Shown in pieces: positions 1 to 20,340 of a stretch of DNA of 33,088 nt. Source of the stretch: Cyanophora paradoxa CCMP329 (lineage: Eukaryota > Plantae > Glaucophyta); NCBI GenBank assembly GCA_004431415.1, contig QPMI01000077.1, positions 1 through 33,088 on the forward strand. Direction: 5' to 3'. The notes below the pieces were generated by a model. It was not told where the DNA came from. It saw only the letters and a list, made by a program, of their open reading frames with translations, and did not search any database. Each line of letters starts with the position of its first letter. The stretch's first letter is position 1. The translations under genes and the position numbers were made by a program.

Positions 1-293
1 AAAAAATGGTATATTGGGCGTTCTGCCCCACAATACCATATATCGTCTCACATCTTATAGAATTTCATAAATCCTTACCATAACCGATTTTTCGATTCAT
101 TTGACACGATAATATACGGAATTTCTCGATTGTCGTACTTTGATCGAAAAAATACACCAAACCAACACCAAACCAACACCAAACCAACACCACACCAATA
201 CCAAACCAACACCACACCAATTCCCCACGTAATCCCACCGATTCAAAACCAAAATTTCATTTTCTTCGATTACCTGTATTCACCCTATCGAAT
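1..293 (+). repeat. Left terminal inverted repeat (293 bp)
   Basis: AAAAAATGGTATATTGGGCG...CACCCTATCGAAT is the reverse complement of 11123-11415. The A-run may be clipped by the window edge. Confidence 0.96.
154..220 (+). repeat. 11-bp tandem repeat (ACACCAAACCA, ~6 copies) inside the TIR; mirrored at 11196-11262
   Basis: Read directly: acaccaaacca acaccaaacca acaccaaacca acaccacacca ataccaaacca acaccacacca. Confidence 0.9.
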
Positions 294-335
294 ACGTTTT
301 AATCACATAAAGATTTATCTAAACTTCTGTTAAAA

Positions 336-674
336 ATGGAACCCAAACCAAAAGCAACCCGTTATTATATTGTCTCACGTTACGAGGATCGTAAAGAAGT
401 TAAACAAATGGGTGGTCGATGGGATCCGGATACTCACCTTTGGTATACAACCAAGAAAGACAGTGAATTACTCAAAAAGTTTAAACAACTTTCAAAAGAA
501 GAAGTAAAAGGAATCGATCAAATTGTATATATTACGGTTCCTTATAGCGAAAAAGAAGAAGCGAAACAATACGGCGCACGATGGGATAATGAAAATGGAA
601 CGTGGTTTATGCGTGGTATCCACCATAACGAGGTTTTCGAAAAATACAAACCGATTAAATTCATCGACGAGTAA
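336..674 (+). CDS. Small protein with two tandem DUF5710-like domains
   Basis: Two copies of the motif: YYIVSRYEDRKEVKQMGGRWDPDTHLWY and YITVPYSEKEEAKQYGARWDNENGTWF; ATG in AAAAATGG context. Confidence 0.85.
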   Translation: MEPKPKATRYYIVSRYEDRKEVKQMGGRWDPDTHLWYTTKKDSELLKKFKQLSKEEVKGIDQIVYITVPYSEKEEAKQYGARWDNENGTWFMRGIHHNEVFEKYKPIKFIDE

Positions 675-1716
675 GCCCGCTCCTTAAATTATACTTCTTT
701 CGAACTACAACCTTCCTATTTGGTTTAATCCCTTCTTTCGCTACTAATCTATTTACCTTTGTTGTTTTTCTAACTCTCTCTACGCGTTTCTGTGTGGGAA
801 TCTTAACAATTGCGTCCTTATCTACCTTCTGTAACTCGTTCATCTTAAAGTTTCTACGCACCTCTTTGGGAGTCTCTCCTTCGTTCTCTTCCAATAAACT
901 AAATCGATTACCTACTTTACCTGCTACCTTGTAAACCTGCTTCGTGTATCTTGCACCTTCCTTATCGAATACCTTCTTTTCTGTCACAGCACGAACATAA
1001 TCACCCTCTTTAAAAGTGGGCATCTGCTCCTTAATTCTCTTGTTATGCACAGCATCCCTGAAATATATGAACGACTGCTTTTCGTTATTACCATACACTG
1101 CATTGGTGAATCATTCTTTAAAGAAACATGAGGTGAATTATTGTAAGTCATTAAAACGTCTTTATAGTATTCTGTCCACTTTGGGTTTCCACTTGATGTA
1201 ATCGCCTTTCTTAAATATTGCTTGAATGTCCTTGTGAACCTATCGATAATCCCAATTTATCGCCTACTGTTATGTGGTCATTCTTAGCTACGTCTGTATA
1301 GAGTGTTACATTGTTCTCCTCACACCATTTACGATACATTTCAGCTGAAAACTCATTATCTCCTGCGATCGCATTCACCTTACCTGCTTCAACCTTGAAC
1401 CTATTGAGAATCTCTATTTTCGAGTCTCCATTTTGAATGGATACACGAACGCTTTACGACTCAATATGTCAATAAATCCCATCATCCTGTCGATTCCATT
1501 ATTTCCCGTTTTGTAGTTCTTGAAAAATATCACGTCCACCTGGAAGGAATTAGGCGGCGCTACTATTCTGAGAAATGTCTTCTGCTTTTTGGGTTTCTTA
1601 AAGATCTGGTCGATCTCTTGATTTTTAAAACGTTTCCGTAGTTCTTCTTCATCAAATTTAACACCATCATTAATTAGTTTCTGTCGATATTTGGTATAGC
1701 TAAGCACCTGATCCAT
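661..1716 (-). pseudogene. Retroviral-like (rve) integrase, broken by three 1-bp deletions (~352 aa restored)
   Basis: FQVDVIF...FIDILSRKAFVYP, then after frameshifts (~1418, ~1252, ~1103) IAGDNEF, KLGIIDRFTRTFK, W...VLMTYNNSPHVSL and FKEGDYVR...VFDKEGARYTKQVYKV. The frameshifts could be sequencing errors. Confidence 0.9.
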
Positions 1717-1724
1717 TTATATAT

Positions 1725-4700
1725 CTACTGGGTTTTTGTTTGCGGCACACTTAGCGAGCGATAGTGTCCAATCGCAAGAGTAGAATAGAGATCTTCACAG
1801 AGATACCTCTTAGTATCGAGCGCATTAAATGCCCGTTTCTTCATTTCCTGCGTTGTTACTTCGTGGTTCTTTGATCGGAAACCTCTAACTGTTACTTGCT
1901 CTTGCTCCTGCATTGGATTCATGACAGTGTTGTAGAATTGCTGGAACTCTAACCTATTCTGCACTACTGACCTCTGAACTCCCTTCAACTTTTTAACAGT
2001 TTTCTTCTCCGAATCTTTTTCGAGACCAAGAGCCTTCACATTCAACTCCTTCTTATAAGAATATGCCTTTGGCTTGTATCCCGCGAATCCTGTAACAATG
2101 TAATCGCTGCTGTCATCCTTGAACAACCCCGGAACCTTCTTATTCTTCGGGTTGTAGCACATGTGTGATTTACTGTAATCGGACTGATCGAACCAATGCG
2201 CGTCTGTATTCATATCCTTATAGATATCTTCGGTTTCGATCACGTAATACAGCGAATCGGTGTCTGTCATCAGAAGTCTCGCACGATCCTTACCATACTT
2301 CTCCATGATGTAATCGTAGTGGAACTCATACATGATCAGTTTCGAAAGATCCAAGATGGCTTGACCGACGAAAATTGGCTTGTCCAACGTAATGGAACCC
2401 TTGTAGAACTCAATGGCTGTGAGATTCTCATTAATGATCTTCATAGTCTTCAACAATGGGTTACCGTTGTGTTTGAGTTGCTTCTTTGGATCACAGCACA
2501 ACTTAATGTTACTGCGCTTCCTCACATTCTCCATAGTCTTACCGAAAACCGAGTTATTCATGAGTTTGTAAAAGTCCTTTTCGAAATCGTTTCGCGCCTG
2601 TGTCCTCAGTTTCGTGTTAAGGTCTATGTAAGGTTTCAACCATTCCGATTGATCGTAAATAACACCACGATGCACTTTCGTAACTTTCATGCCCTTCTTC
2701 ACGTAATACTGCAAGCTCTTGATGTGGAGGATGTAGTTCTTTTTGTCCATCAGATTCGGCACCAACTTACGAGTCTCTGGTAGCTTGTCCTCACCAATCA
2801 TTTCCAATTGCGTAGCTGAAAGCATTTCACGCGTAACTACAAGCGACTCAGGAGCTAACGGAAGATCGTTATGTAGATCGTGTAGATGGGGTGGATACTC
2901 TAAGTCAACCTCCAATGTCGCGCCTTGTTCTCCTTCTGAATCGAACCCCATGTAATCGAAATCATCTATGTTGTCAATCCACTCAAAGTAGCGGTAGGGA
3001 AGCTTGAAACTCATCGCCTTTCCATACAGATTATTTGCATCCCAAGGCATGATATACTTCGTCGGCTTCGATGAATCGTAAGACTCAATGTAGGGGTTGT
3101 TTGCCTCTCCGTATCGATTGAAATTGAAGAAACACCACACGAATTCCCATCTCAAAGAACCGATACATATCGGGGTCATAGAGTTGTTCTATCACAACTC
3201 CTGTATACTTCAACATTGCAAACCACGACAGGTGAGGTGCTGAGACGAAATGGATCGGGTCAATTTCGTATTGCTCATAGCAAACATTGCGGAATGTATC
3301 GAATACATCCGCAAGTAGCGCAACATCGGTAGCAAGGTAGATATCGTGATAGTCTCCGAGCGTCTTACACTTGAAAGCATTCCAAACCTTCACACAATGG
3401 GTGTAATCCTCATCGCTTATCGCTGTGTCGTTCAGTTTCGAGTAAAACGCATCTTTTGGTGGTAATTGCGTCTCATTGAGTTTTTCGAAACTGTCGAGGT
3501 AATCGTAAGGGAAATGTCCTTTTTTCATCAGTAGTTCACGCTGCTGTTTGGTGTATTTCATGGAATCACACCATTCGTTTGTGAACTTGAAATTGTCCTT
3601 TCCAAGATTCTTAACGAGACTGTCGAGACTGGAAGCCATGAAATTCAGAGAATCCAAGAACTTGTAAGCGCCAACATCAAACGTTACGAACTTTTCGAAA
3701 TTCTGCGCAATACAACGAATTTCACCACTGGTATTAGCGAAATCTTTCATTGCTTTGAGAATGTAATGACCATCGTAACCTTTCAGATTGTGGAAAATTA
3801 CGGGAATTTTTGGATTAATGCGACGTTTAAGGTTGCAAGTATTGCAAGCCGCCCCGAGATATTTACCTGTTGTGTGGTCATGATCGCGAACAGGTTTCTC
3901 TCCTATTCTGAAAGGACAACCACAGATATAACACGAGAAAGCGTTTTTGAAATCTTCCTTATCTTCGGAGGTCATTACCATTGGCTCAACAATTCGCAAC
4001 CTGTTGAGAAGGTCAGACTCCATTAAACGCAACGTTTGCATGAAATGCTCCGTAACCTCATCATCGTTCTCTGGGTTTTGCTTCCGATACAAGACCTGCT
4101 TAATGATCTCCCCATTGTGGATAACCATAACCTTGTATCCGCTGGGTATGTGTTTCTGGTATACCTCTGTGTTATCACCGCGTCTCTCTTGCACCTTTTG
4201 TAAGATACATTCGAAATCACCAACAATGAACATCGGATGTCTAACCGTCTTATCTATGTGTTCCCGTGGATTCCATCTAATATCTGAGTCAGGATCGGGC
4301 ATGGTATCAACTGTGGCATTTGGACGATCGTAGCACTTGTTGTATTTAATGTGATTTTCTAAGATTCTCTCAGCCGTGAAACCCCTCAAACACGCCTTAC
4401 AGTAATACTTTGTTCCGTGGTGTGAACTGGGAATGAGTCGTGACAGGCTGGAAATGTAACCGTAATGCATGGTGTCTGATTTCTCATCACCCCAAACAAG
4501 AATGTCAATGGTCTCATGTTGTCTGTTAGGGTCTTTGCATATGTGGATTGGAACAACACGGAGGCTTTTAGTTTCCTTATCCTCTTCGAGAGAGTATACA
4601 TTAATTGGACGTCCCACCATTTTAGAAGCCCTTTCGTATTCACGGGGGTTATTCTTCAATGGGAATTGGAAGCTATCCCAATTAAACTCCTTCTCATACT

Positions 4701-5697
4701 TCCTGTATCTCTTCACATCGTAACGGTGTTTATTGGATAGTTCATGGTGATGTAGTCCAATAATCACCGCCCATGCAAAGCACTTTTGGTCGTCGTTCTG
4801 TGGATTGATAACCGCCTTTTTCGCTTCTATCTCCTTGGGAAGCGGAATGTAAGAGCTACCGGCAATCGGCTGATACGTGAGAATTTGTAGCGAGAACTTT
4901 ATGATATTATCCAACTCACCACTGGGGTGTGATTCGAGAATTTCTTGTAGTTCGTCTACTGACTCATCCACAGTGTTTACGGTTTCGCGCTCATTCACGA
5001 TAAGGAAGTATCGTGTGGGAATTCCCGTATACATGTCGTATCCATATCTGCCCGTGTATCTTCCATTTTCTAAGAGCGGTTTCTTATAAATTGCGGTCAC
5101 GGTCAGATGGAACTTAATACCACGTCTATTCCTCACCGCTTCACGGAAACGACCGTAGAAAGCATTCCATCCTATTATCCTGTCGATGAACTCATGAACC
5201 GATGCTACTTTATTAGTTCTCTGATTCTTCCATGTGACCTCAACCACGAGATTATTCATGGCTTGCATAATTTCAATCTCATTGCGATATCTACGCTCCT
5301 TTGCCCATTCTTGCTTTGCCTTCTGTTTCTCAACATTCTTAGCGGCTCTCTCCGCTCTCTTCTCCTTCTTCTCTTGCTTCCTCTCCGCTCTCTTGTTCCG
5401 CTTCTCAGCGATCCGCTCCGCTTTGGTCTTCTTTTTCCCTTCTCCAATGTCTTCAATGTTACCGAGTCTACCTATTTCGTTCTGCTCATTCAGTCTCCCC
5501 TCACCTCTGCCGATTATGTCTTTGATTGAGTATCTTATGTCTCTCAGAGCATTCGACCGTGGTCTTTTCACGAAAGCAAAGTAACCGAATGCATTGAATT
5601 GCTCCACCGTCATAAAGTCATTTGCGAGGGCATACCCAAGATCAGCAAGTATAAGTCGTCTCTCCTTAGCGTTCTGAATACTAACAGCGCGAGGCAT
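1725..5697 (-). CDS. Protein-primed family B DNA polymerase (~1324 aa restored; frameshifted at ~3118-3138, seen as ORFs 3085-5697 and 1725-3179)
   Basis: GSSYIPLP...INPQNDDQKCF; C2H2-like finger; Exo I GDFEC; endonuclease VII-like CYIC..RDHDH..CNTCN; Exo II FHNLKGYD; FLDS; KGHFPYDY; Exo III YLATDV; Pol motifs DANNLYG, KLMNNSVFGK, TDTDS. Adding two bases restores GIRGGVSSISNRYGEANNPY. Confidence 0.95.
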
Positions 5698-5967
5698 CTC
5701 TTTGGCGTTCTATAATATATTCAAAGAAAATTATCCTTAAATCATTTTTTCACCTTAACGTCATTTTTTGTCCACGATTCTTTTTCGATTGCGGGCATTT
5801 CGTAAAAATAACAAAAGGGTCGACCATCAATTGGTGAATAGATCTTTTCGATTAAAGTACATCAATCGAGAAGTATCAAAATACGATGGTTCTAAAAATA
5901 ACACGAAGGGGTTTAGCGCGATTGCGCTTATTTGTCTTCTCAGAGCAAGCGCGCCGAGAAAAAAGAT

Positions 5968-6222
5968 TTAGATATATTTCGATGGGCGACCCACATTATT
6001 GTAGGGAACACCAAACAAGAACTTAACGAAACAGATCGCATTATTTGAATACGCTCTGTAACTTGCTTGAACTATCTTCATAGAGCGGTTGCATTCATCA
6101 GATTGATATAATTCGAATACCTTCTTGCGCATTTTCTCTTTGTTCTTTTGGAGGGCAATTTTGCCCTTACCGGTTGCCCGATAATTGGCATTCGCGCGCT
6201 TTTGGGCTGCACTGGTCGACAT
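5968..6222 (-). CDS. Small basic hypothetical protein (84 aa from ATG 6222)
   Basis: MSTSAAQKRANANYRATGKGK...; ATG in AAAATG context with an upstream ATTTAAAGAT/TATATA like that before the polymerase gene. Confidence 0.6.
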   Translation of the reverse strand: MSTSAAQKRANANYRATGKGKIALQKNKEKMRKKVFELYQSDECNRSMKIVQASYRAYSNNAICFVKFLFGVPYNNVGRPSKYI

Positions 6223-6568
6223 TTTGGCTATCACTGTTACTATATAGTGAGAAATCTTTAAATGGTTTTCTTCTTTGATATAAACCGCTTTTGAAAAGCT
6301 GTCATTTTTTGCCCCGCCGCATTGGAGCGCTGCGCATCCTTGTGAGACAAGATGCCGGAAAAATAAGCCGAAGGTCTCCGCCTCCACGTTTCTACGATTG
6401 AACCCCGTAGAACAGGTGATTAAAAAGAGTGATACATGGATATCACTACTTTCCTACAACGCCGCTTAGAAAAATAAGCAAACGTGAGCGCAAACTTTCG
6501 GAATGGAGGGTATTGCGCTATTCTTTGAAAAGAAAATTTTAACGTAAGAATGATGCATGAGCCGTCGC

Positions 6569-7250
6569 TTAACGCTTGTAGCCCGGGCGAATACCCAATT
6601 TAGCAAATCCGGAAAGCATCGGCGCTGCATTGGGAATGGAGTTAAGCGGGTCGGATTGCGATGTAGCAACCCTGAGGATAGATTTGTTAAGCACCGGTAA
6701 ATCTGTTTTATTGGATTCTTGGTAATCGATCGTCTTAGCGATTAATTCCGTCGGTGTGTGTTTCTCCTCTTTGATTGGATCGGGAAGGACATCAAACGTA
6801 ACATCGGGTTTCTTGTCTACCTTCTCTTTGGTTATCGGTTGCTCTGTTATCTTCTTCTCTTTCTGCGTCTCATCGGCGATTCCCTCAATGAGACTTTTAG
6901 CGTGTTTGTATGTGATCGTTTTCAGTCCACCGGTTGCTGCTCTGATAAAGTAGCGGTTGCGGTGGTCTTTTTCGGAATACGTGGAATAGAGACGTTCACC
7001 GCCATCGAGAAGTTTAAGAAGAGTTGACTTTTTATCGACCTTATCGATTGTCGCACTCTTAAATTGTCCTTTCTTAATCCCACGCTTTGCACCGGGCATA
7101 CGGTTTAGCGGCACTTGCTCAACTAAGGCGTTACCATCGTTAATGTCCTCTACTGGCGCCACAGCATGGGAATTAATCGTATTATTAATACTCTTATCAA
7201 TATCAGCGGTTCCGAATGCCGCGGTTCCTTTCGATTTCTTGTAATGCCTC
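6569..7250 (-). CDS. Hypothetical charged protein, 3' part (its 5' end lies inverted at 7662-7726; ~248 aa restored)
   Basis: Frame is open from 7252 to the stop at 6569 with no ATG near its 5' end; it joins in frame to MARKTQPKNFLAKPVEQAEPER when the inversion is reversed. Confidence 0.75.
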
Positions 7251-7726
7251 CGTTATACCGCTCGATCTTCTGTTTAATTCTTACATCCTTCTACATGTCG
7301 ATCCACTCAAAGGAAACTACGTAAGCAAGAATACCAGCGATGATAAAGCGCTTGCTAAAATTGAGATTGACCAGACGGTAGGTAGTCTCCTAAAATACGA
7401 TTCTTCCAATAACTCCATGATCATTCATGAGCAGAACGGATTAGTGGAAGTTGAGACGCTTAAAGTGCGTTTGACGTATTGGAATGGTAACGAAACCGAT
7501 ATAACAACGGATTGGTCGATGACTCTCGAACTGATCACGGAAGATGAAAAGGATCTTACGAAAGCAGCACTGAAAAACGTCATTAGAGATTTAGAAAACG
7601 TCTATTTACCGTTTGGTCGTAATATGTAATATTGCCGAATAATTTTGTGGGGTTATTTCAAATGGCTCGTAAGACACAACCCAAGAATTTCTTAGCGAAA
7701 CCCGTCGAACAAGCGGAACCGGAACG
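7251..7726. other. Inverted segment bounded by 4-bp inverted microhomology CGTT (7251-7254) / AACG (7723-7726)
   Basis: Reversal fuses two pairs of gene halves in frame at once. Confidence 0.88.
7255..7629 (+). CDS. Minor capsid (penton) protein, C-terminal part, inverted
   Basis: YILLHVD...LAKIEI...GSLLKY...LKVRLTYWNGNETDITTDWSMTLEL resembles C-termini of PLV/NCLDV minor capsid proteins. Confidence 0.8.
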   Translation: MPLDLLFNSYILLHVDPLKGNYVSKNTSDDKALAKIEIDQTVGSLLKYDSSNNSMIIHEQNGLVEVETLKVRLTYWNGNETDITTDWSMTLELITEDEKDLTKAALKNVIRDLENVYLPFGRNM

Positions 7727-8250
7727 CTGTCGAGGTAATGATTATAAGTAAAACCACCAACAGTAACAGGTGAACCAAGAGGGGTGGATGGATAACCTAA
7801 ACCCGAGCCATTAATTGATGGATCCGGGAAACCTAAGAAATTGGCTAAAATCTGACTACTGAAACGTATAGTAAATGTTGCTTCGCCAATAATCCTTAGT
7901 TTCATTGTGGTAGAGTCGTAAGACACATTGAAATGACGGGTATATGTAGTTCCCGATGCACTGTATGTCTGGGATAACAGTAGAGCATTTAGATAATTCA
8001 CCAAACTCTCTGCTGTGTATGCCCCTTTTGAAATTGTGTTTGATTTAGTTTTGGTTGCCCCTTGTCCATCGAGTGTGGATGTTACAAGCGCTCCGTTTTC
8101 GCTGAGATTGTAAATGTTATTGAACATTTCGAAATTGGTAACGCGACATGCTTTAACATTTTGGATTGCATGGGGAAGTTTGTATGAATAGTTTGTTGGG
8201 GTTCCATCGTCCCGATCCCGGGAATCAATATTTAGATAGTAACGCGTCAT
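7723..8250 (-). CDS. Minor capsid (penton) protein, N-terminal part (176 aa; 300 aa restored)
   Basis: YLNIDSRDRD..P.NYSYKLPHAIQNV, NNIYNL, ISKGAYTAESLVNYLN, LANFLGF: typical minor capsid motifs; divergent from MCP. Confidence 0.85.
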
Positions 8251-8302
8251 TCTGTTTAATAATGTAATTTAAAAATTTCTTTTCGTATTTTAAACAAAGG
8301 AC
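8251..8302. promoter_or_regulatory. 52-bp AT-rich divergent promoter region between mCP and MCP
   Basis: TTAAACA lies just upstream of each ATG in mirror orientation (8253-8259 minus, 8290-8296 plus). Confidence 0.45.
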
Positions 8303-9529
8303 ATGGCGCTTACTGGAACGACCCTTAAAGAACTCCTTGTTACTCCCGGATCGGATCAAATTTACCTATCTCCCGGTCTCCAAATTGGAACCAACCCCAA
8401 GTATAAGCCGTTCCTTGAACAGGTTCGCCCACGCGGTAACACTTTCGGGTTTAAGACGACCGCTTACTTTGATCTACCACGCAAGCAACTGCTTAGTGGC
8501 GTTTCGCTTTACTTTAAGGTTACTACCGGTGGTGGTGTTGCTTGTGATCTTCCCAATGGTGGTTCTTCTTTCATTAAAGAGGTTCGTTTTGTCCATGGTG
8601 GGTTCAAGTATATCATCCCTGGCGATTGGATCACTGTAAACACTCTGATCGATAATGATGTATCGGGACTGAGCGCTATGTATATGTCCCTTGGTCTCGG
8701 AGCGGAAGCTACCCGTGAATCTACCGACAAGTCGACTGAATATGTAGTTAAAATTCCGGCTGCTTTCTGGGACGATGCATATTTCCCCCTTTGCGTTCTT
8801 GCGGATATGCCCACCATCGAGGTAGATTTTCGCGAGGCTGCGGTAGTTAACGTTCCTGCTGGTGGAACTGTTACCGTGAGTGATTGCGGGCTAATCTGTC
8901 AATTCGTTAACATTGCTTCTGCGGAGGCTGAGACTCTCCTTAAAATGGCGAATGAACAGGGAGGTATTCGCATTCCAATTACGGAAGTCATCCACAAAAA
9001 GACCCGATCACTTAAAACTGCCGATTCTGGCGAGGCGGTCGAGGTTACACTGGCTAACGTTTCCGGTCTGGTGCATTCAATCCTTATGACTGTTCGTGAC
9101 GTTAACAAGCTGGACAAATACACTCATTCCGATTTCTACGGTGTTGGATCTGCTGTGAAAATCGATGAGTTCCAAATTTTCCACAACAACCGATCGCTTG
9201 AAATCTCTAATAAACCCATATCTGGTTTCCTTTCTGCTGCTAACCATATCCCATCGCATTACAAAGGTGCAACCGTAGGCAATGCTGGTTTTGGTTTCGA
9301 GAGTGGATGTGTCTATGGTGTTGTTCTCAGCAAGAATGGTAAGGATTCGCTCCATAATTCAGTCATGGGTTATCAGGACTTCTTCAATAGTTCGAGTTCG
9401 TATATGGATCTGACCGTTTCCGGTTGCACTGATGCTGCACCGGTTCAGGTCGACATTTTCGCGCTCCGTCACAATGTCATGGTTCTCAATGGCTATAACA
9501 TTTCGACACTGAAAGTTTCCAACTTTTAA
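8303..9529 (+). CDS. Double jelly-roll major capsid protein (408 aa), NCLDV-like
   Basis: GSDQIYL..., FGFKTTAYFDLPRKQLLSG, FIKEVRFVHGG..IPGDWI, VKIPAAFW..FPLCVL..IEVDFR, VDIFALRHNVMVLNG; located between mCP and ATPase. Confidence 0.85.
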   Translation: MALTGTTLKELLVTPGSDQIYLSPGLQIGTNPKYKPFLEQVRPRGNTFGFKTTAYFDLPRKQLLSGVSLYFKVTTGGGVACDLPNGGSSFIKEVRFVHGGFKYIIPGDWITVNTLIDNDVSGLSAMYMSLGLGAEATRESTDKSTEYVVKIPAAFWDDAYFPLCVLADMPTIEVDFREAAVVNVPAGGTVTVSDCGLICQFVNIASAEAETLLKMANEQGGIRIPITEVIHKKTRSLKTADSGEAVEVTLANVSGLVHSILMTVRDVNKLDKYTHSDFYGVGSAVKIDEFQIFHNNRSLEISNKPISGFLSAANHIPSHYKGATVGNAGFGFESGCVYGVVLSKNGKDSLHNSVMGYQDFFNSSSSYMDLTVSGCTDAAPVQVDIFALRHNVMVLNGYNISTLKVSNF

Positions 9530-9659
9530 AAGTTCTTTTCTTTCTTTAAAGTAGGAAGCCTGCGAATCGCGTATAGGTTAGCGCTTTAGCGGCAAGCAAA
9601 GCATGCCTTGTGCATGCACTTTTGTTTTTTATCTTATTACTGTAACGGACAACGTAGTA

Positions 9660-10412
9660 ATGGAGATCGACCTTGATGATATTCCCGAATTCGACCCTGC
9701 AAGGACAGCTAAACTCCCTTCGCGTTTTTTGCTTGCCGGACGCTCCAACTCTGGTAAGACAACTTATTGTAAGTATCTACTCTATGAACTGCGGGATAAG
9801 ATCGATCAGATTGTAATATTTAGTTCCACTGCGTTTACTGGGCAATTCAGAGATATAACCCACCCCGATAATATATATGAGGAATGGGATGATAATGTGG
9901 TGGTGAAACTCATTAGCATGCAAAAGAAACGAATCGAGAACAATGAGAAGAGGAATAGTTTAGTTATTATACTTGATGATATGATAGGTTCTAATTTGGA
10001 TATGCATAATTCAGCTGTGTTATCTAAATTGGTAACGAGTGGACGCCATTATGGTATCACAGTTATATTTAACGTTCAGCGTTTATGCTCTATTTCTACT
10101 ACCATTCGTCGTAATGTGGAGTTCGTCGTATTTTTCAATATTCTTGGGAACGAGAAAGAGTTTAATTGTGCATACGATGAATATAATGGTGGATTGGATA
10201 AGAAGACTTACAAAGAGTTACATAAAATGTGGGGCTACAATTACCAAACAGTTATAACTGGATTGCAAGGGTATGATATAAAGACCTATACAGACCGTGC
10301 GATTTTGACAGATGATGATATGAAAGGATTTCGCAAGTTTGTGAAGCGACGAGCCTTTAAAAAGAGAGTTTCGATGCAAATTAGTAATGAACCCACTACG
10401 ATTACGGTGTAG
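9660..10412 (+). CDS. A32-like (FtsK/HerA) genome packaging ATPase
   Basis: Walker A GRSNSGKT, Walker B LVIILDD, GRHYGI arginine motif, Q...IRRN. ATG 9660 preferred over 9603. Confidence 0.93.
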   Translation: MEIDLDDIPEFDPARTAKLPSRFLLAGRSNSGKTTYCKYLLYELRDKIDQIVIFSSTAFTGQFRDITHPDNIYEEWDDNVVVKLISMQKKRIENNEKRNSLVIILDDMIGSNLDMHNSAVLSKLVTSGRHYGITVIFNVQRLCSISTTIRRNVEFVVFFNILGNEKEFNCAYDEYNGGLDKKTYKELHKMWGYNYQTVITGLQGYDIKTYTDRAILTDDDMKGFRKFVKRRAFKKRVSMQISNEPTTITV

Positions 10413-10786
10413 TTGTGAAGAGCTTAACATGAGCATTCCGGCGACGTTTTCAGATTTAATAGGCGATGATCTGGCGAAGAGTTACGATGCTTTAAAGATG
10501 CCGACACGCGAAACGACGATGTATATATATGCGCATATATACACTTTTTTCACCGGAAATTCCGTATGGGTCAACCGGGAATTCGGAGGTTTTAGGTATA
10601 TATGAGGTATATATGTCTTGTTTTTTTCGCATATGACGACATATACATATATGTCCTCGCGTCACCGACATATTCGGGGTCATCACATTGCGGCGATCAC
10701 GAAAACATATAGTATGCATGGAAGTGTAATTTTATTTTTTTTCCGGTGTTCCACCAATAGCGAATCGGTTACGAAATGTCGTAGCC

Positions 10787-10882
10787 CTATGCGTTACGAA
10801 ATAGTGTAGCCCGATGCGTTACGCGTTACGAAAAAAAGTCTATGCGTTACTATTTAACGTATCCCGATGCGTTACGCGTTAC
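10787..10882 (+). repeat. Cluster of six GCGTTAC motifs arranged with a 53-bp period
   Basis: CCCGATGCGTTACGCGTTAC at 10810 and 10863; CTATGCGTTAC at 10787 and 10840. Confidence 0.85.
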
Positions 10883-10927
10883 TAAAATTTAAAATAATAA
10901 TAAGTTTTGCATTCATGGGAGACACTC

Positions 10928-10990
10928 GACAAGCCCTAGACAAGCCCTAGACAAGTCCTAGACAAGCCCTAGACAAGCCCTAGACAAGTC
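10928..10990 (+). repeat. 11-bp tandem repeat (GACAAGCCCTA, ~5.7 copies)
   Basis: Read directly from the sequence. Confidence 0.92.
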
Positions 10991-11122
10991 GGGACAAATC
11001 GATTTTCGACCAATCAAAAAATACCCACTTGAAACTCAATCAAACACCTGTAACTTTTCACCAACTGCTCCGTTTTCGATTCTGAAAAAAGATTCGGAAT
11101 CGTCGCGTTGCGCTCTGTCAGG

Positions 11123-11415
11123 ATTCGATAGGGTGAATACAGGTAATCGAAGAAAATGAAATTTTGGTTTTGAATCGGTGGGATTACGTGGGGAATTGGT
11201 GTGGTGTTGGTTTGGTATTGGTGTGGTGTTGGTTTGGTGTTGGTTTGGTGTTGGTTTGGTGTATTTTTTCGATCAAAGTACGACAATCGAGAAATTCCGT
11301 ATATTATCGTGTCAAATGAATCGAAAAATCGGTTATGGTAAGGATTTATGAAATTCTATAAGATGTGAGACGATATATGGTATTGTGGGGCAGAACGCCC
11401 AATATACCATTTTTT
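11123..11415 (-). repeat. Right terminal inverted repeat (293 bp)
   Basis: Reverse complement of 1-293; ends ...CCCAATATACCATTTTTT. Confidence 0.96.
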
Positions 11416-14400
11416 TGCATATTCCCCCAGAGAGATTTGGGGTGCATCCATCTTCTATTTTGTGGCGGATCAGAAACCTGGGGCCTTTAACTGAGTGATT
11501 TGCTGGTGGGTGGGTTCATCTTCCTAAGGCTAGCGCCTTGTGCATATTCCCCCAGAGAGATTTGGAGTGCATCCATCGTCTATTTTGCGGCGGATCAGAA
11601 ACCTGGGGCCTTTGACTGAGTGATTTGCTGGTGGGTGGGTTCATCTGCCTAAGGCTAGCGCCTTGTGCATATTCCCCCAGAAAGAGTTGGAGTGCATCCA
11701 TCTTCTATTTTGTGGCGGATCAGAAACCTGGGGCCTTTGACTGAGTGGCTTGCTGGTGGGTGGGTTCATCTTCCTGAGGCTAGCGCTTTGTGCAGATTCC
11801 CCCAGAGAGATTTGGGGTGCATCTTTCTTGTTTCTTGTGGCGGATCGGAAACCTGTGGCCTTTGATTGAGTGGCTTGCTGGTGGGTGGGTTCATCTTCCT
11901 GAGGCTAGCGCCTTGTGCATATTCCCCCAGAGAGATTTGGAGTGCATCCATCTTCTATGTTGCGGCGGATCAGAAACCTGGGGCCTTTAACTGAGTGATT
12001 TGCTGGTGGGTGGGTTCATCTGCCTAAGGCTAGCGCCTTGTGCATACTCCCCCAGAAAGATTTGGAGTGCATCCATCTTCTATTTTGTGGCGGACCAGAA
12101 ACCTGGGGCCTTTGACTGAGTGGCTTGGTGGGTGGGTTCATCTTCCTGAGGCTAGCGCCTTGTGCAGATTCCCCCAGAAAGATTTGGAGTGCATCCATCT
12201 TCTATTTTGTGGCGGATCGGAAACCTGGGGCCTTTGACTGAGTGGCTTGCTGGTGGGTGGGTTCATCTGCCTAAGGCTAGCGCCTTGTGCATATTCCCCC
12301 AGAAAGATTTGGGGTGCATCCATCTTCTTTTTTGTGGCGGATCAGAAACCTGGGGCCTTTGACTGAGTGGCTCGCTGGTGGGTGGGTTCATCTGCCTAAG
12401 GCTAGCGCCTTGTGCATATTCCCCCAGAGAGATTTGGAGTGCATCCATCTTCTATTTTGCGGCGGATCAGAAACCTGGGGCCTTTAACTGAGTGATTTGC
12501 GGGTGGGTGGGTTCATCTGCCTAAGGCTAGCGCCTTGTGCATATTCCCCCAGAAAGATTTGGAGTGCATCCATCTTCTATTTTGTGGCGGATCAGAAACC
12601 TGGGGCCTTTGACTGAGTGGCTTGCTGGTGGGTGGGTTCATCTTCCTGAGGCTAGCGCCTTGTGCAGATTCCCCCAGAGAGATTTGGGGTGCATCTTTCT
12701 TGTTTTTTGTGGCGGATCGGAAACCTGGGGTCTTTGACTGAGTGATTTGCTGGTGGGTGGGTTCATCTTCCTGAGGCTAGCGCCTTGTGCAGATTCCCCC
12801 AGAGAGATTTGGGGTACTTCTTTCTTCAATTTTGTGGCGAATCAGAAACCTGGGATCTTTGACTGAGTGATTTGCTGGTGGGTGGGTTCATCTTCCTAAG
12901 GCTAGCGCCTTATGCATATTCCCCCAGAGAGGTTTTGGGTACTTCTTTATTCAATTTTGTGGCGAATCAGAAACCTGGGATCTTTGACTGAGTGACTTGC
13001 TGGCGGGTGGGTTCATCTGCCTAAGGCTAGCTCCTTGTGCATATTCCCCCAGAGAGATTTGAGATGCATCCATCTTCTATTTAGTGGCAGATCGGAAACC
13101 TGGGGCCTTTGACTGAGTGATTTGCTGGTGGGTGGGTTCATCTTCCTAAGGCTAGCGCCTTGTGCATATTCCCCCAGAAAGATTTGGAGTGCATCCATCT
13201 TCTATTTTGTGGCGGATCAGAAACCTGGGGCCTTTGACTGAGGTTCATCTTCCTGAGGCTAGCGCCTTGTGCAGATTCCCCCAGAGAGATTTGGGGTGCA
13301 TCTTTCTTGTTTTTTGTGGCGGATCGGAAACCTGTGGCCTTTGATTGAGTGGCTTGCTGGTGGGTGGGTTCATCTTCCTGACGCTAGCGCCTTAGGCATA
13401 TTCCCCCAGAGAGGTTTTGGGTACTTCTTTCTTCTATTTTGTGGCGGATCCGAAACCTGGGATCTTTGACTGAGTGACTTGCTGGCGGGTGGGTTCATCT
13501 TCCTAAGGCTAGCGCCTTGTGCATATTCCCCCAGAGAGATTTGGGGTGCATCCATCTTCTATTTTGTGGCGGATCAGAAACCTGGGGCCTTTAACTGAGT
13601 GATTTGCTGGTGGGTGGGTTCATCTTCCTAAGGCTAGCGCCTTGTGCATATTCCCCCAGAAAGATTTGGAGTGCATCCATCTTCTATTTTGTGGCGGATC
13701 AGAAACCTGGGGCCTTTGACTGAGGTTCATCTTCCTGAGGCTAGCGCCTTGTGCAGATTCCCCCAGAGAGATTTGGGGTGCATCTTTCTTGTTTTTTGTG
13801 GCGGATCGGAAACCTGTGGCCTTTGATTGAGTGGCTTGCTGGTGGGTGGGTTCATCTTCCTGACGCTAGCGCCTTAGGCATATTCCCCCAGAGAGGTTTT
13901 GGGTACTTCTTTCTTCTATTTTGTGGCGGATCCGAAACCTGGGATCTTTGACTGAGTGACTTGCTGGCGGGTGGGTTCATCTTCCTAAGGCTAGCGCCTT
14001 GTGCATATTCCCCCAGAGAGATTTGGGGTGCATCCATCTTCTATTTTGTGGCGGATCAGAAACCTGGGGCCTTTAACTGAGTGATTTGCTGGTGGGTGGG
14101 TTCATCTTCCTAAGGCTAGCGCCTTGTGCATATTCCCCCAGAAAGATTTGGAGTGCATCCATCTTCTATTTTGTGGCGGATCAGAAACCTGGGGCCTTTG
14201 ACTGAGTGGCTTGCTGGTGGGTGGGTTCATCTTCCTGAGGCTAGCGCCTTGTGCAGATTCCCCCAGAGAGATTTGGGGTGCATCTTTCTTCTTTTTTGTG
14301 GCGGATCAGAAACCTGGGGCCTTTGACTGAGTGGCTTGCTGGCGGGTGGGTTCATCTTCCTGAGGCTAGCGCCTTATGCATATTCCCCCACAGAGGTTTT

Positions 14401-16873
14401 GGGTACTTCTTTCTTCAATTTTGTGGCGAATCAGAAACCTGGGATCTTTGACTGAGTGACTTGCTGGCGGGTGGGTTCATCTTCCTAAGGCTAGCGCCTT
14501 GTGCATATTCCCCCAGAGAGATTTGAGATGCATCCATCTTTAATTTAGTGGCAGATCGGAAACCTGGGGCCTTTGATTGAGTGGCTTGCTGGTGGGTGGG
14601 TTCATCTTCCTAAGGCTAGCGCCTTGTGCATATTCCCCCAGAGAGATTTGAGATGCATCCATCTTCTATTTTGCGGCGGATCAGAAACCTGGGGCCTTTA
14701 ACTGAGTGGCTTGCTGGTGGGTGGGTTCATCTTCCTAAGGCTAGCGCCTTGTGCATATTCCCCCAGAGAGATTTGGGGTGCATCCATCTTCTTTTTTGTG
14801 GCGGATCAGAAACCTGGGGCCTTTAACTGAGTGATTTGCTGGTGGGTGGGTTCATCTTCCTAAGGCTAGCGCCGTATGCATATTCCCCCAGAGAGGTTTT
14901 GGGTACTTCTTTCTTCAATTTTGTGGCGAATCAGAAACCTGGGATCTTTGACTGAGTGACTTGCTGGCGGGTGGGTTCATCTGCCTAAGGCTAGCGCCTT
15001 GTGCATATTCCCCCAGAGAGATTTGAGATGCATCCATCTTTAATTTAGTGGCAGATCGGAAACCTGGGGCCTTTGATTGAGTGGCTTGCTGGTGGGTGGG
15101 TTCATCTTCCTAAGGCTAGCGCCTTGTGCATATTCCCCCAGAAAGATTTGGAGTGCATCCATCTTCTATTTTGTGGCGGATCAGAAACCTGGGGCCTTTG
15201 ACTGAGTGGCTTGCTGGCGGGTGGGTTCATCTTCCTAAGGCTAGCGCCTTGTGCATATTCCCCCAGAGAGATTTGGGGTGCATCCATCTTCTATTTTGTG
15301 GCGGATCAGAAACCTGGGGCCTTTAACTGAGTGATTTGCTGGTGGGTGGGTTCATCTTCCTAAGGCTTGCGCCTTGTGCATATTCCCCCAGAAAGATTTG
15401 GAGTGCATCCATCTTCTATTTTGTGGCGGATCAGAAACCTGGGGCCTTTGACTGAGTGGCTTGCTGGCGGGTGGGTTCATCTTCCTAAGGCTAGCGCCTT
15501 GTGCATATTCCCCCAGAGAGATTTGGGGTGCATCCATCTTCTATTTTGTGGCGGATCAGAAACCTGGGGCCTTTAACTGAGTGATTTGCTGGTGGGTGGG
15601 TTCATCTTCCTAAGGCTAGCGCCTTGTGCATATTCCCCCAGAAAGATTTGGAGTGCATCCATCTTCTATTTTGTGGCGGATCAGAAACCTTGGGCCTTTG
15701 ACTGAGTGGCTTGCTGGTGGGTGGGTTCATCTTCCTGAGGCTAGCGCCTTGTGCAGATTCCCCCAGAGAGATTTGGGGTGCATCTTTCTTCTATTTTGTG
15801 GCGAATCAGAAACCTGGGGCCTTTGACTGAGTGGCTTGCTGGTGGGTGGGTTCATCTTCCTGAGGCTAGCGCCTTGTGCATATTCCCCCAGAAAGATTTG
15901 GAGTGCATCCATCTTCTATTCAGTGGCGGATCGGAAACCTGGGGCCTTTGACTGAGTGACTTGCTGGCGGGTGGGTTCATCTTCCTAAGGCTAGCGCCTT
16001 GTGCATATTCCCCCAGAGAGATTTGAGATGCATCCATCTTCTATTTAGTGGCGGATCAGAAACCTGGGGCCTTTAACTGAGTGGCTTGCTGGCGGGTGGG
16101 TTCATCTTCCTAAGGCTAGCGCCTTGTGCATATTCCCCCAGAGAGATTTGGGGTGCATCCATCTTCTATTTTGTGGCGGATCAGAAACCTGGGGCCTTTA
16201 ACTGAGTGATTTGCTGGTGGGTGGGTTCATCTTCCTAAGGCTAGCGCCTTGTGCATATTCCCCCAGAAAGATTTGGAGTGCATCCATCTTCTATTTTGTG
16301 GCGGATCAGAAACCTGGGGCCTTTGACTGAGTGGCTTGCTGGTGGGTGGGTTCATCTTCCTGAGGCTAGCGCCTTGTGCATATTCCCCCAGAAAGATTTG
16401 GAGTGCATCCATCTTCTATTTAGTGGCGGATCGGAAACCTGGGGCCTTTGACTGAGTGACTTGCTGGCGGGTGGGTTCATCTGCCTAAGGCTAGCGCCTT
16501 GTGCATATTCCCCCAGAGAGATTTGAGATGCATCCATCTTCTATTTAGTGGCGGATCAGAAACCTGGGGCCTTTAACTGAGTGGCTTGCTGGTGGGTGGG
16601 TTCATCTTCCTGAGGCTAGCGCCTTGTGCATATTCCCCCAGAAAGATTTGGAGTGCATCCATCTTCTATTTAGTGGCAGATCGGAAACCTGGGGCCTTTG
16701 ACTGAGTGATTTGCTGGTGGGTGGGTTCATCTTCCTAAGGCTAGCGCCTTGTGCATATTCCCCCAGAGAGATTTGGGGTGCATCTTCCTTCTATGTTGTG
16801 GCGGATCGGAAACCTGGGGACTTTGACTGAGTGGCTTGCTGGTGGGTGGGTTCATCTGCCTAAGGCTAGCGCC
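11416..16873 (+). repeat. Satellite A, 125-bp unit, about 44 copies
   Basis: Unit ...GGCTAGCGCCTTGTGCATATTCCCCCAGAGAGATTTGG...GGTGGGTGGGTTCATCTTCCTAA; 125-bp spacing of the spurious ORFs; one 122-bp and two 107-bp variants. Confidence 0.97.
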
Positions 16874-17071
16874 GGAGCTGGACGAGTTCAGGCTTCGCTG
16901 CGCCGCTACGCACGAGGCGCGGGCTAAGGTTGTTTAGGAGCTCATGGACCGCGCCGGTGGTGACCGTCAGTGCCGGCGTGGCCTGGTTGGGGCGATCTGA
17001 GGGACGTTACCAAACTTTTTCTACCTCGTATCCCCCTGAAGCAGAAGTGCAGCTCGTCCTAGGCCTCGTGA

Positions 17072-20000
17072 CTACGAACGTAATCGATGATGATGTTCCT
17101 GAGTTCCCCCGGTAGGGGCTCGAGGGGGAACGGCAAGGCACCGTGCAGCCGGACTGCCGCTAGGTATGCCGCGATTCCGTACACCCACGTGTGCACCGAG
17201 ATTGGGAACCCCAGGACCTGCACAGGCTGGTGGACGACACATGGGCACGGCAGTGTTGGGCCCGCGGCGACACAGAGACACCACGACGCCAACAGGGCCA
17301 GTGTAGTCGTTGACGGAGACCGGGAAGTACTTGGGGTCGGGACCGCGCGGATGCGGCTTCACCGCCTCGTTTGGGGGTTTCCGATTCGCGTACCCGGACC
17401 TGGAGAGAAGGTAGGTAGCGGGCTCCTGCCCGCTGGGCGCCTCTCCGGCTGCCGCGAATCGCCTCGGCCGCACTTCAAGCCCACTTTTAGCTGATCAGCC
17501 GCGCGCCCGTTGGGAATCCGCTCCGCGCGGGTCGGTTCGGCGAGCCACTCCAGCGGCCACCAGCGGTGGCTTCAGCAACTGCTCTCTCGCTCAGCCTGAT
17601 GTCTTCTCTGCGGCGCCGAGCGGCTGCTCGCGTCATGCTGACGGCTTTTATGCGCCCCTGCAGGCAATCGGCGTTGGCGTGATTGCACTCCTAGCGACCG
17701 CGGGCGTCGTCGCCGCACAGAAACTCGGACTCCTGGCGAGGCGATGTGCTTCTGAGCACTCGGGCGGCCCGGGGCCTCCCAACCCCCGCCGCAGCGGACT
17801 TTGGGCAGGCGCGCGTGCCCAGCTGGAGGCGGTATATCTTCCGGTGCCGAGGAGCACAGCTTGCTGGTCTGGGCTGGCGATGCTGTACGCCCGTCGGTTT
17901 TCACCCGGGCCCTCACGGGCTCCGGTTTCCGGCCCTTCCCTGGAGTTTTGGAGTCTTCGCTTTTCTAGGGCACTGCTCATGGTCAGAGGAGGGCTATAGT
18001 TTAGGCTCAGCCGCTTCGACTTTACCCTTGCTATACGTAGGCTCAGTTCCTGCGTCCTTAGGGAGGTTGTGGTAGCTTGGCCTTAGCTTCGGCTCTCTGT
18101 TTGCAGTGTTTATTAGGAGTGTGTTGTCCCCTTTCTCCAGTACGTAGATTGTGAGCACAGCACACGAGAGTCCTCACTTTCTCTTCCTGGATAGTGCTTT
18201 CAGTGAGATTGTGGTCGACGTAGACAACTTCATTAGTTGTATGGATGTGCTTATGCAAATCGACCCCGCCTCGTTTGGGGGTTTCCTCGTGCCCGCGATG
18301 ATCTGCTGCCAGGTGTTCCAGTTGTTCGCGTCGAAGATGGTGATATGCGAGCGATTCTGGATCGCGGTGGGGGCACCACGGCTGGGTCCGGCCGGTGCGA
18401 CGTGCGTGAATTGAACGATTCGAGGGCCGCACAGGTCAGCGTTGGCCGGCGTGAGAGTCATGGGCGGCGCGTTGAGGTCGTCGGGCATGGCAATCTCGTA
18501 GAAGCATCGTTCAACGTCATGACGTGAAGCGGAGTCACGGAGGTGCTCATGGTTGTCCTCATCGTAGATGCAGTCGAAGTAGTCGGCGTACTTGTTGGCC
18601 GGGTGCCACAGTGAAACTCGTCCGCGGCCGTGATCATGAACGGTCGGAACAGCAGGCCCCCACGGTTGTGTTGGCTGAGCTCGCCGTGGCCGGGGGCGCC
18701 GGCGCGGTACGGATAGGTGCCGGGGCCGGCGCCGTAGCGTACGACCAGCGTACGTGCATCTTCATGTATTTCGAAGAATGGGCGCATGTACGGAACGCGC
18801 CGGAGGAACGCCTCGAGACCAGAGTCGCCGAGTAGCATGTAAGGCATGTGGACCTCACCTAGGACGTGCATGTACTTCTTCGTCGTGGTGGCGGGGTGAA
18901 CTGGGGGTGGGTCCCGAGTCTGGATTCCCTCCAGCTCCTCGACCGGCGGTGGCTCCAGGAGCTCCTGCGGTCTGTGCCCGTCCTCCACGGTGAGCTCCTC
19001 GGTCAGATCAGCTGTCTGTCCGAACGGGGCTGGGCCTCTGAGGATGTGAGCCGCGACGGCGAAGATGTGGGGCGCGTGTCGTCCATGTTCCTGGATCGTC
19101 TTGCAGTACGCCGTGGCCAGGAAATCCGTATGCGTGAAGTGAAGCAGTGTCAAACAAATGTGATAGGAAGTATCCCGTTCCGGATCAGTATCCAGAGGTT
19201 CCGACACGCGTCTCCTCGGGGCTGTATGTGCGCATGCCGTGCGGGAGCGGGGGGCGAGGACTATGGAGACGGATAGGGTACCAGTCGTTAATCGAGTGGG
19301 CAAACAATTCCCCGTTGATGTGATTGTTGCGCCGTCCGAAACACTCACTCTCCGTCAAGTCAGGTCGCGGTTCCCGTCGGACCATCACGCCGCTCAGGTC
19401 CGGCCACACTCCATGCTGGTAGCCGGCGCCGTCGACGGTCGTGAAGCCCTTCGCCCACTCCTTGTTGGGTAGACGTTGGGTATGTCAGCGTTCTCCGAGA
19501 GTTGCGCCTTCTTGAAAGGTACAGTGTGGAATTCGCACAGGATTCTGGAGATGATGGAGTCGACCTCCTCGGGTGTAAGCCTGGCGGCCTTACGCTCCTT
19601 CTTCTGCAACTTCTCGTCATTCAGTCGCTTCTCGTGGGGGCGTTTGCGCTCTGTTCCGTAGACCATAGCGCGGGCACGAAGCCCGAAGTACGTGCTGGAG
19701 TTCCAGAAAGTGTCCTTGCTCATGTCGTCGACGAGTCTGACGAGGGAATCCCAGTCCGGAACGCGTGGTAGAATGTCAATGCCGTCCGACATCCACTGCG
19801 TCAAGTACCCGTATTCGTCAACGTCGCGCTCAGGGGGCCGTGGGACAGGTACGGCGAGAGGGTCGGTGACGGGGACCATCGGATTTGGGAGGACAGGGAG
19901 TAAGTGGTCGCGGTAGCGCGGGTAGAGCATGCAGTAGAACAGATTCAGTCGATGCTCTGCGTCCTGGAGGAAAGCCCGCGTTACCGCCAAGCGCTGGATG

Positions 20001-20340
20001 ATCGATAGCCTTGCCAAGTGCAGTGTTGAGTCGAGCAACGAGGCCGAAAGCAAGCTTGCTCGCAGTACGAGTGCTTGATTCCGTCTCAAGCTTTGTACAC
20101 CCGACGCATGGCCTCGAGGGTCAGCTGAAGGACATGGGACCGCCACGCAGTCTTGCACGCCAGTTGTAGTATAGCTCGACGGCCGGCTCCGGCTGCTTCG
20201 GGGCGAAGACGGGGGCGTGCAGTCGCGACTCGAGACGGATCGGCTTGCCCTTCTTGGCGAGTTGATGCTTGTGCATGAACGTGGTGATTGACATCACGAC
20301 GACGGTGGTGTCATGTAGCTCGGCGAGCAGTTCCAGCGCG
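17072..20340 (-). pseudogene. Decayed coding region of unknown identity, possibly with introns, interrupted by an 883-bp insertion
   Basis: Protein-like GC3-rich frames (ALELLAELHDTT..., RDVDEYGYLTQWMSDG..., YMLLGDSGLEAFLRRVPY...); RKPPNEA duplicated at the insertion; candidate intron GTGAGT...CATAG at 19348-19261. Confidence 0.45.
17383..18265. mobile_element. 883-bp apparently non-coding insertion flanked by a 21-bp target site duplication (SINE-like or truncated non-LTR element)
   Basis: CCGCCTCGTTTGGGGGTTTCC at 17362-17382 and 18266-18286; removing the insert rejoins the minus-strand frame WQQIIAGT-RKPPNEA-VKPHPRGPDPKYF. Confidence 0.8.

What the first reader, a model, noticed from the sequence alone, without database searches (positions are those of the whole stretch)
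1..11415. Minimal 11.4-kb integrated virus combining a Maverick-type pPolB and integrase with an NCLDV-like capsid, and no maturation protease
Seen: both TIRs and only eight genes. Established: canonical Polintons are about 15-25 kb and carry an adenain/Ulp1-type protease. Inference: the polymerase looks like the classical Polinton type (C2H2 finger, endonuclease VII insert), while MCP and mCP motifs look more like Nucleocytoviricota virion proteins. This may be a chimeric dwarf lineage at the Polinton/NCLDV boundary, possibly dependent on a helper giant virus.
Basis: partly seen in the sequence, partly recalled or inferred. Interest (0 to 1): 0.85.

Follow-up and report, generated by a model that had tools for sequence, protein, structure and literature searches.

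The report
Tiny integrated algal virus, giant-virus-like capsid
This is a compact 11.4-kb DNA virus genome integrated in what is likely the glaucophyte alga Cyanophora; it pairs a Polinton-type polymerase and integrase with a capsid protein most similar to those of giant viruses, and its family is already tabulated in published surveys but not named or placed.

Summary
The element is real: perfect 293-nt terminal inverted repeats enclose 11,415 bp with eight genes (DUF5710, rve integrase, pPolB, two unknowns, mCP, MCP, A32 ATPase) and no adenain/Ulp1 maturation protease. The integrase and polymerase frameshifts are likely long-read errors. A real 468-bp inversion, polymorphic among runs, splits mCP and its neighbour in this copy. 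The MCP is 92/100 identical (by eye) to a Cyanophora paradoxa endogenous-virus MCP in a 2023 supplement, whose best HHpred hit was already an NCLDV capsid. A 2025 table lists 156 glaucophyte elements with no protease, 85 rve and 49 pPolB. My tests agree that the MCP family is closer to NCLDV MCPs than to the Polinton, PLV and virophage MCPs in hand. The ATPase scores better with small-virus ATPases, mCP is unresolved, and no tree places the element. Lack of protease, NCLDV-like PLV capsids and module swapping are all published. Nothing here shows helper dependence. What remains: an unnamed capsid lineage with few relatives, in an unusually small genome.

The parts
1..293 (.). Left terminal inverted repeat; begins with an A6 run, imperfect hairpin at about 6-39
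   Evidence: 100% complementary to the right arm; z -3.9, region chosen after looking
336..674 (+). Tandem DUF5710 protein, 112 aa
   Evidence: PF18974, E 8e-21, 2 stretches; homolog beside pPolB in L002
661..1716 (-). rve-type (DDE family) integrase, about 350 aa, in four frames in this assembly; two catalytic Asp aligned, Asp where most relatives have the third acidic Glu; no chromodomain seen
   Evidence: short-read contigs of 4 of 4 runs show a one-base indel at each break
1725..5697 (-). Protein-primed family B DNA polymerase, about 1320 aa, in two frames in this assembly; predicted terminal protein, vOTU, exonuclease with endonuclease VII insert, palm
   Evidence: break contradicted by contigs of 4 of 4 runs
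4465..4782 (-). vOTU-like cysteine protease dyad inside pPolB (Cys306, His411 of the ORF); domain name inferred from position and the literature
   Evidence: both residues invariant in 18 of 18 aligned pPolBs; domain described in 10.1101/2024.03.18.585575
5968..6222 (-). 84-aa basic ORF, unknown; skipped or replaced in some sister copies
   Evidence: joint 5968-6248 in 4 of 4 runs
6569..7254 (-). Main part of a roughly 247-aa Lys-rich, Cys-free unknown protein (inferred core or structural protein); its first 20 codons lie in the inverted segment
   Evidence: no family or Atlas hit
7255..7722 (.). 468-bp segment inverted relative to sister copies, bounded by a 4-nt microhomology; splits mCP and the unknown ORF
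   Evidence: opposite-strand joint 7255/7723 in X5 and X3; the window's own junction in a 0-difference contig 7118-7280 in X1 and X12
7255..7629 (+). C-terminal part of the putative minor capsid protein (inverted)
7662..7722 (+). Start of the unknown Lys-rich ORF (inverted)
7723..8250 (-). N-terminal part of the putative minor capsid (penton) protein; whole protein about 299 aa
   Evidence: weak match to a penton-like ORF of L001 (E 0.002); N-terminal motif resemblance is recalled, not tested; fold inconclusive
8303..9529 (+). Double jelly-roll major capsid protein, 408 aa
9603..10412 (+). A32-like genome packaging ATPase
   Evidence: PF04665, E 2e-15
10413..11122 (.). Mostly non-coding region with short tandem arrays; possible 58-aa ORF at 10429-10605 (+)
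11123..11415 (.). Right terminal inverted repeat
11416..16873 (.). Host 125-bp satellite array flanking the insertion

Best explanation
It is one copy of a multi-copy endogenous Polinton-like DNA virus family, likely of the glaucophyte Cyanophora paradoxa, that joins a pPolB-plus-rve-integrase module to a protease-less capsid module whose MCP forms an unnamed, NCLDV-leaning lineage. Shown: the anatomy, the double jelly-roll fold of the MCP model, many divergent sister copies, and the inversion. Inferred from known Polinton biology: the integrase inserts and the TIRs define a linear genome; the pPolB primes from its own terminal-protein domain, which the vOTU domain would cut free; the terminal A runs would allow sliding-back initiation (recalled from phi29-type systems); the ATPase would package DNA into an MCP/mCP capsid that needs no maturation protease, as in most PLVs. 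It encodes no transcription machinery, so it must use host or giant-virus enzymes. I put giant-virus-triggered reactivation at about even odds, on priors only. This copy likely cannot make its own penton because of the inversion and would rely on sister copies. The family likely swaps replication modules under a shared capsid module.
For: MCP 92 of the first 100 residues identical, by eye, to a C. paradoxa EVE MCP in PMC10120064 Table S2, whose HHpred best hit is an ascovirus MCP at 97%; 366 MCP hits in two unnamed clusters in that genome. PMC12220804 Table S6: of 156 glaucophyte elements, 0 protease in nine columns, 85 rve, 49 PF03175, 40 D5_N, 139 Pox_A32, only 2 hit the Polinton/PLV MCP profiles. 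Organism A holds 65-80% of the sampled words in 20 runs, 17 studies. Summed contig depth in X1 is 259-891 over 1-6192 and 978-3760 over 6193-10836 (the tool warns this is no copy number). pPolB relatives at 31-44% occur in 22 IMG/VR loci with Polinton-type, virophage-type and other capsids. MCP model matches PBCV-1 chains at Z 21.7 and 21.0 (rmsd 3.5-3.7, about 310 aligned) against 13.2 and 12.2 for Sputnik and mavirus.
Against: No host genome was held, so host, copy number and target-site duplication are not directly tested. The host rests on one by-eye protein comparison. No virion, free genome or transcript evidence. The MCP model is middling (pLDDT 62). The third integrase acidic residue is Asp rather than the usual Glu, so activity is not assured. 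mCP identity rests on weak similarity and gene position.
Confidence: 0.75

Rival explanations
1. The family is a true deep lineage next to Nucleocytoviricota and Mriyaviricetes that kept the ancestral Polinton polymerase and integrase.
For: The six-member MCP profile hits 8 of 8 random NCLDV triplets at 95-97% probability and a 16-member NCLDV profile at 98% (E 5e-15), against at most 11% for five small-virus groups. Depth-matched triplets score 55-94 against NCLDV, against 30-39 for Polinton triplets and 20-25 for the others. Atlas neighbours are mostly Nucleocytoviricota capsids.
Against: NCLDV MCPs act as a hub: a four-sequence Polinton-like profile also reaches 90% against them, equal to the window-plus-two triplet, and PMC10120064 says most Polinton and PLV MCP models resemble NCLDV capsids. 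The ATPase prefers small-virus profiles and neither placement is rejected (support 51/17; p-AU 0.49). No VLTF2, VLTF3, RuvC or HUH gene was detected. TsV, PgVV, Zephyr, Zora and Mriyavirus MCPs were not identifiable in my set.
Confidence: 0.25
2. The 11.4-kb size is secondary: this subfamily is an internal-deletion derivative of longer family members, and not a minimal lineage.
For: Many glaucophyte elements carry genes absent here: lipase 89, AdoMet decarboxylase 66, Peptidase_S74 37 of 156. Sister copies differ by indels or replacements at several places (table 5).
Against: Both TIRs are perfect, genes cover 9293 of 11415 bases, all core genes are present, and every one of 30 bins is covered in 4 of 4 runs. 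Accessory-gene variation is normal in PLVs.
Confidence: 0.25
3. The element is a decayed fossil and no member of this subfamily is active.
For: Four frame breaks and one gene-splitting inversion in the window.
Against: A contig otherwise identical to the window differs exactly at two integrase breaks, and the pPolB break is contradicted at full depth in 4 of 4 runs. The un-inverted junction stands in X5 and X3. TIR arms are identical. PMC10120064 describes such breaks as common assembly artefacts.
Confidence: 0.12

Closest known systems
Cyanophora paradoxa endogenous viral elements (PMC10120064 Tables S2, S4; PMC12220804 Table S6; EVE_QPMI01_83 in 10.64898/2026.10.13.758929)
   Same: Nearly the same MCP (92/100 by eye), NCLDV best hit, no protease, rve integrase, pPolB in a subset, A32 ATPase.
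   Different: Published only as table rows and counts in what I read; no name, gene map or placement seen. This copy lacks the lipase, AdoMet decarboxylase and S74 genes common in that set.
Polintoviricetes (Maverick-Polintons, adintoviruses)
   Same: TIRs, full-length pPolB with vOTU and an endonuclease insert, adjacent rve integrase, MCP, mCP, ATPase.
   Different: No adenain/Ulp1 protease; MCP does not match PF21738 or Polinton profiles; 11.4 kb against 15-20 kb; non-animal host.
NCLDV-like PLVs: Zephyrvirus, Zoravirus (VC102), VC218, VC40, GKS2/Alpenseevirus (10.64898/2026.06.19.733378)
   Same: Small genome with NCLDV-related capsid; rve in 57-62% of Zora and VC218; pPolB in some Zephyr members.
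   Different: Those are 15-30 kb; Zephyr has no endogenous examples or known host; Zora carries Mriya48 and often HUH; their ATPases are NCLDV-related whereas this one is not clearly so. Their profiles could not be run here.
Mriyaviricetes / NCLDV-dwarf-like viruses (PMC11253617)
   Same: Small virus with NCLDV-like MCP; some are endogenous in algae.
   Different: 35-45 kb, HUH replication, VLTF2/VLTF3 and RuvC, no integration genes; none of these detected here.
Aquintoviricetes (TsV, Gezel/PgVV and related PLVs)
   Same: MCP, mCP and ATPase without protease; endogenous in algae; variable replication module.
   Different: MCP leans to NCLDV; only 2 of 156 glaucophyte elements hit the Polinton/PLV MCP profiles in PMC12220804.

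Membership tests
Polinton-like virus in the broad sense | Double jelly-roll MCP | tested here: met
Polinton-like virus in the broad sense | A32-like packaging ATPase | tested here: met
   PF04665 E 2e-15
Polinton-like virus in the broad sense | Single jelly-roll minor capsid protein | tested here: inconclusive
   weak match E 0.002; half-protein model pLDDT 44, no fold hit
Polinton-like virus in the broad sense | TIRs and an integration gene | tested here: met
Polintoviricetes | pPolB plus rve integrase | tested here: met
Polintoviricetes | Adenain/Ulp1-type maturation protease | tested here: not met
Polintoviricetes | Polinton-type MCP | tested here: not met
   no PF21738 hit for 6 of 6 family members; profile probability 0.1% against the Polinton-like set
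Polintoviricetes | Short target-site duplication | not testable with these tools
   left flank is outside the window; no genome held
Mriyaviricetes / Nucleocytoviricota | NCLDV-related MCP by similarity | tested here: met
   similarity only, no tree
Mriyaviricetes / Nucleocytoviricota | NCLDV-type ATPase | tested here: inconclusive
   NCLDV set biased to one motif type
Mriyaviricetes / Nucleocytoviricota | VLTF2, VLTF3, RuvC, HUH endonuclease, 35-45 kb genome | tested here: not met
   11.4 kb; no such Pfam hit in any ORF; features
Zephyr / Zora / VC40 / GKS2 groups | Match to the groups' MCP profiles; Mriya48 | not testable with these tools
Aquintoviricetes | TsV/PgVV/Dino-type MCP | tested here: inconclusive
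   no named reference in hand; one unassigned PLV group gave 11%; 2 of 156 in the published table
Virophaviricetes | Virophage MCP and protease | tested here: not met
   no PF21915/PF22031 hit; profile probability 0.25%; no protease
Virophage lifestyle | Replication depends on a co-infecting giant virus | not testable with these tools
   needs co-infection; the promoter-motif test gave nothing

The most novel reading that the evidence does not exclude
The glaucophyte family and its few environmental relatives form an unnamed deep lineage whose capsid is sister to the giant viruses but which still carries the complete Polinton polymerase and integrase in 11.4 kb: about the smallest such genome, with a culturable host, and a living model for the Polinton-to-giant-virus transition.
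Probability: 0.25. Interest if true: 0.72.

Novelty: new variant of a known kind. Interest (0 to 1): 0.42.

Why it matters
The NCLDV-like small viruses described so far are mostly metagenomic, and the largest group (Zephyr) has no known host. If this family belongs near them, it supplies hundreds of integrated copies in a cultured alga, so virion formation without a maturation protease, helper dependence and replicase swapping become testable. It would also point to giant viruses of glaucophytes. If trees place it among ordinary PLVs, it is one more divergent host-specific family.

Tried and rejected
No whole genome held, so no copy count or target-site duplication. Word-indexed protein searches found nothing for MCP or ATPase, and only one of its own members for the MCP alignment. 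No related loci for MCP, ATPase, P0004 or P0005 in IMG/VR or for MCP and P0004 in JGI metagenomes; these scans find close relatives only. No RNA holder listed, which says nothing on expression. The mCP half-model was too poor to search meaningfully. No Atlas hit for the unknown ORF. An upstream motif picked by eye occurs before 3 of 8 genes but is not enriched upstream of genes in NCLDV loci (11 of 250, 4 of 155) or small-virus loci (8 of 161), so it was dropped as helper evidence. pPolB and ATPase trees leave the window on long, unsupported branches; from the pPolB tree I left out L018 (fragmented) and L020 (duplicate of L019), and from the second ATPase tree L020, L015 and L021, using 10 of 19 NCLDV representatives. 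No MCP tree was built (about 14% identity). The L081 hit (E 5e-21) proved to be a canonical NCLDV MCP, not a family member. In one search the first 19 residues of the unknown ORF query were in the wrong frame; the correct frame is printed there and has no Cys. Earlier-findings look-ups were empty. No complex prediction was run.
Full report
Observation. The first 11,415 bases are bounded by 293-nt inverted repeats that are 100% complementary. GC is about 0.37-0.46 inside and 0.50-0.68 outside. The right end runs directly into a 125-bp satellite. The window begins at the left repeat and no genome is held, so a target-site duplication cannot be checked. Eight genes are present: DUF5710, integrase, pPolB, an 84-aa ORF, a roughly 247-aa Lys-rich ORF, mCP, MCP and A32 ATPase. 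They cover 9293 of 11415 bases.

State of the copy. The integrase lies in four frames and pPolB in two. Short-read contigs of 4 of 4 runs show a one-base indel at each break, all in short G or C runs; one contig matches the window over 1105-1506 with no substitution and two gaps. These are likely long-read errors. The mCP is different: its two parts lie on opposite strands. An opposite-strand joint 7255/7723 with 4 shared letters in runs X5 and X3 gives the contiguous form, while a 0-difference contig over 7118-7280 in X1 and X12 carries the window's junction. That contig reaches 26 bases past the junction, under the tool's 31-base rule, but it ends where a 31-mer graph would branch. I read this as a real 468-bp inversion that is polymorphic among runs and also cuts off the start of the Lys-rich ORF.

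Protease. The Lys-rich ORF and DUF5710 have no Cys and ORF84 has no His. Five adenain/Ulp1-like proteins from related loci (two with weak Peptidase_C5 or C48 hits) give no protease match in six frames; only the integrase part of one fusion matches. The maturation protease is absent. The pPolB does keep a Cys and a His that are invariant in 18 of 18 aligned homologs, at the position of the vOTU domain that 10.1101/2024.03.18.585575 proposes releases the terminal protein (passages).

Replication module. The pPolB has 22 relatives in IMG/VR at 31-44%, mostly with an rve integrase nearby, and these sit with Polinton-type (PF21738), virophage-type and unassigned capsids. In a 21-row tree the window is a long branch in no supported group. 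This is a widespread module, as 10.64898/2026.10.13.758929 describes (parts 1-4 of 5 read).

Capsid. The MCP has 5 relatives at E up to 0.001 among 1.84 billion representatives, 23-30% identical; one is from Cyanophora paradoxa. The model (pLDDT 62) is a double jelly-roll, best matched to PBCV-1 chains (Z 21.7, 21.0) and faustovirus (19.7), above Sputnik (13.2) and mavirus (12.2); named top hits in the viral library are NCLDV capsids. No Polinton or PLV capsid appeared among the solved hits, so this ranking cannot separate them. I therefore fetched 49 NCLDV-type MCPs (16 representatives) and compared profiles. The six-member family profile hit 8 of 8 NCLDV triplets at 95-97% and five small-virus groups at 11% or less. 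With equal depth, family triplets scored 55-94 against NCLDV, Polinton triplets 30-39 and others 20-25. Against this, a four-member Polinton-like profile also reached 90%, equal to the triplet of the window with its two nearest hits, and the window alone reached 41%. PMC10120064 notes that most Polinton and PLV MCP models resemble NCLDV capsids. So the lean is real but is similarity, not ancestry. The ATPase scores 59 and 53 bits with small-virus profiles and 27 with NCLDV; neither grouping is shown or rejected. The mCP is unresolved.

Host and prior record. Table S2 of PMC10120064 lists a C. paradoxa EVE MCP that is identical to this one at 92 of the first 100 residues (by eye), with an ascovirus MCP as HHpred best hit (97%). 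Table S4 counts 366 MCP hits in that genome, 272 and 94 in two clusters outside the named groups (file cut, rows only). Table S6 of PMC12220804 gives, for 156 glaucophyte elements, 0 in all nine protease columns, 85 rve, 49 PF03175, 40 D5_N, 34 PIF1, 107 PLV-type against 1 NCLDV-type ATPase hits, 15 NCLDV-type mCP hits and 2 Polinton/PLV MCP hits. The higher contig depth over the capsid half fits a shared capsid module with exchangeable replicases, though depth is no copy number. The host is therefore likely C. paradoxa and the family is already tabulated. Four searches found no paper devoted to it; of the papers listed I saw passages of PMC12220804 and only listings of the adintovirus, Paulinella and cryptomonad papers.

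Comparison. 10.64898/2026.06.19.733378 (parts 1-3 of 5) states that Gosseviruses are the only major PLV group with a core protease, and describes 15-30 kb viruses with NCLDV-related capsids, some with rve (Zora, VC218) or pPolB (Zephyr). Its profiles are in supplements I could not see, and they may already cover this MCP. Mriyaviruses need VLTF2/3, RuvC and HUH (PMC11253617 passages), none detected here. The element fails Polintoviricetes (no protease, other MCP), Mriyaviricetes and Virophaviricetes, and works like a protease-less PLV with a Polinton replication module.

Mechanism. Shown: anatomy, fold, sister copies, inversion. Inferred: integrase-mediated insertion, protein-primed replication with vOTU processing, ATPase packaging into a capsid without proteolytic maturation, and reliance on host or giant-virus transcription. 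Nothing here bears on helper dependence; a candidate promoter motif failed its control.

Verdict. A real, compact member of an already catalogued but unnamed glaucophyte virus family. The residual interest is the orphan NCLDV-leaning capsid, the small size (below the 14-40 kb range quoted in PMC12220804) and a culturable likely host. New variant of a known kind; interest 0.42.

Noticed in passing
window 16874-26664: A GC-rich island between two satellites holds a degraded, internally duplicated element (similar peptide at 20275-20559 and 23821-24162) with an RNase H-like motif near 22560-22650 (resemblance recalled); no Pfam hit. Possibly a decayed retroelement.
   Followed up: partly
window 11416-16873 and 26665-33086: Two host satellites, 125 bp and 206 bp, share an 83-nt stretch at about 80% identity in inverted orientation, suggesting a common origin. 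The virus sits at the edge of the 125-bp array.
   Followed up: no
window 1-60: The terminus folds into an imperfect hairpin (z -3.9) and, after the A6 run, starts with TG, mirrored by CA at the other end, as in retroviral integrase substrates (recalled).
   Followed up: partly
window 10429-10605: A 58-aa ORF directly after the ATPase may be a ninth gene.
   Followed up: no
L014:2740-4248: A 503-aa protein fuses an adenain-like N-terminal part to an rve integrase and a chromodomain.
   Followed up: no
L002:12098-14952 and L009:5681-7480: pPolB-rve elements with 600-681 aa capsid candidates related to each other but with no Pfam hit; L002 also has a protease and DUF5710-like gene. My label 'Gossevirus-like' is a guess.
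   Followed up: partly
P0004, P0005: Environmental MCP relatives on 15.5-kb and 11.7-kb contigs score closer to NCLDV capsids than the window's own MCP; their gene context could not be fetched.
   Followed up: partly
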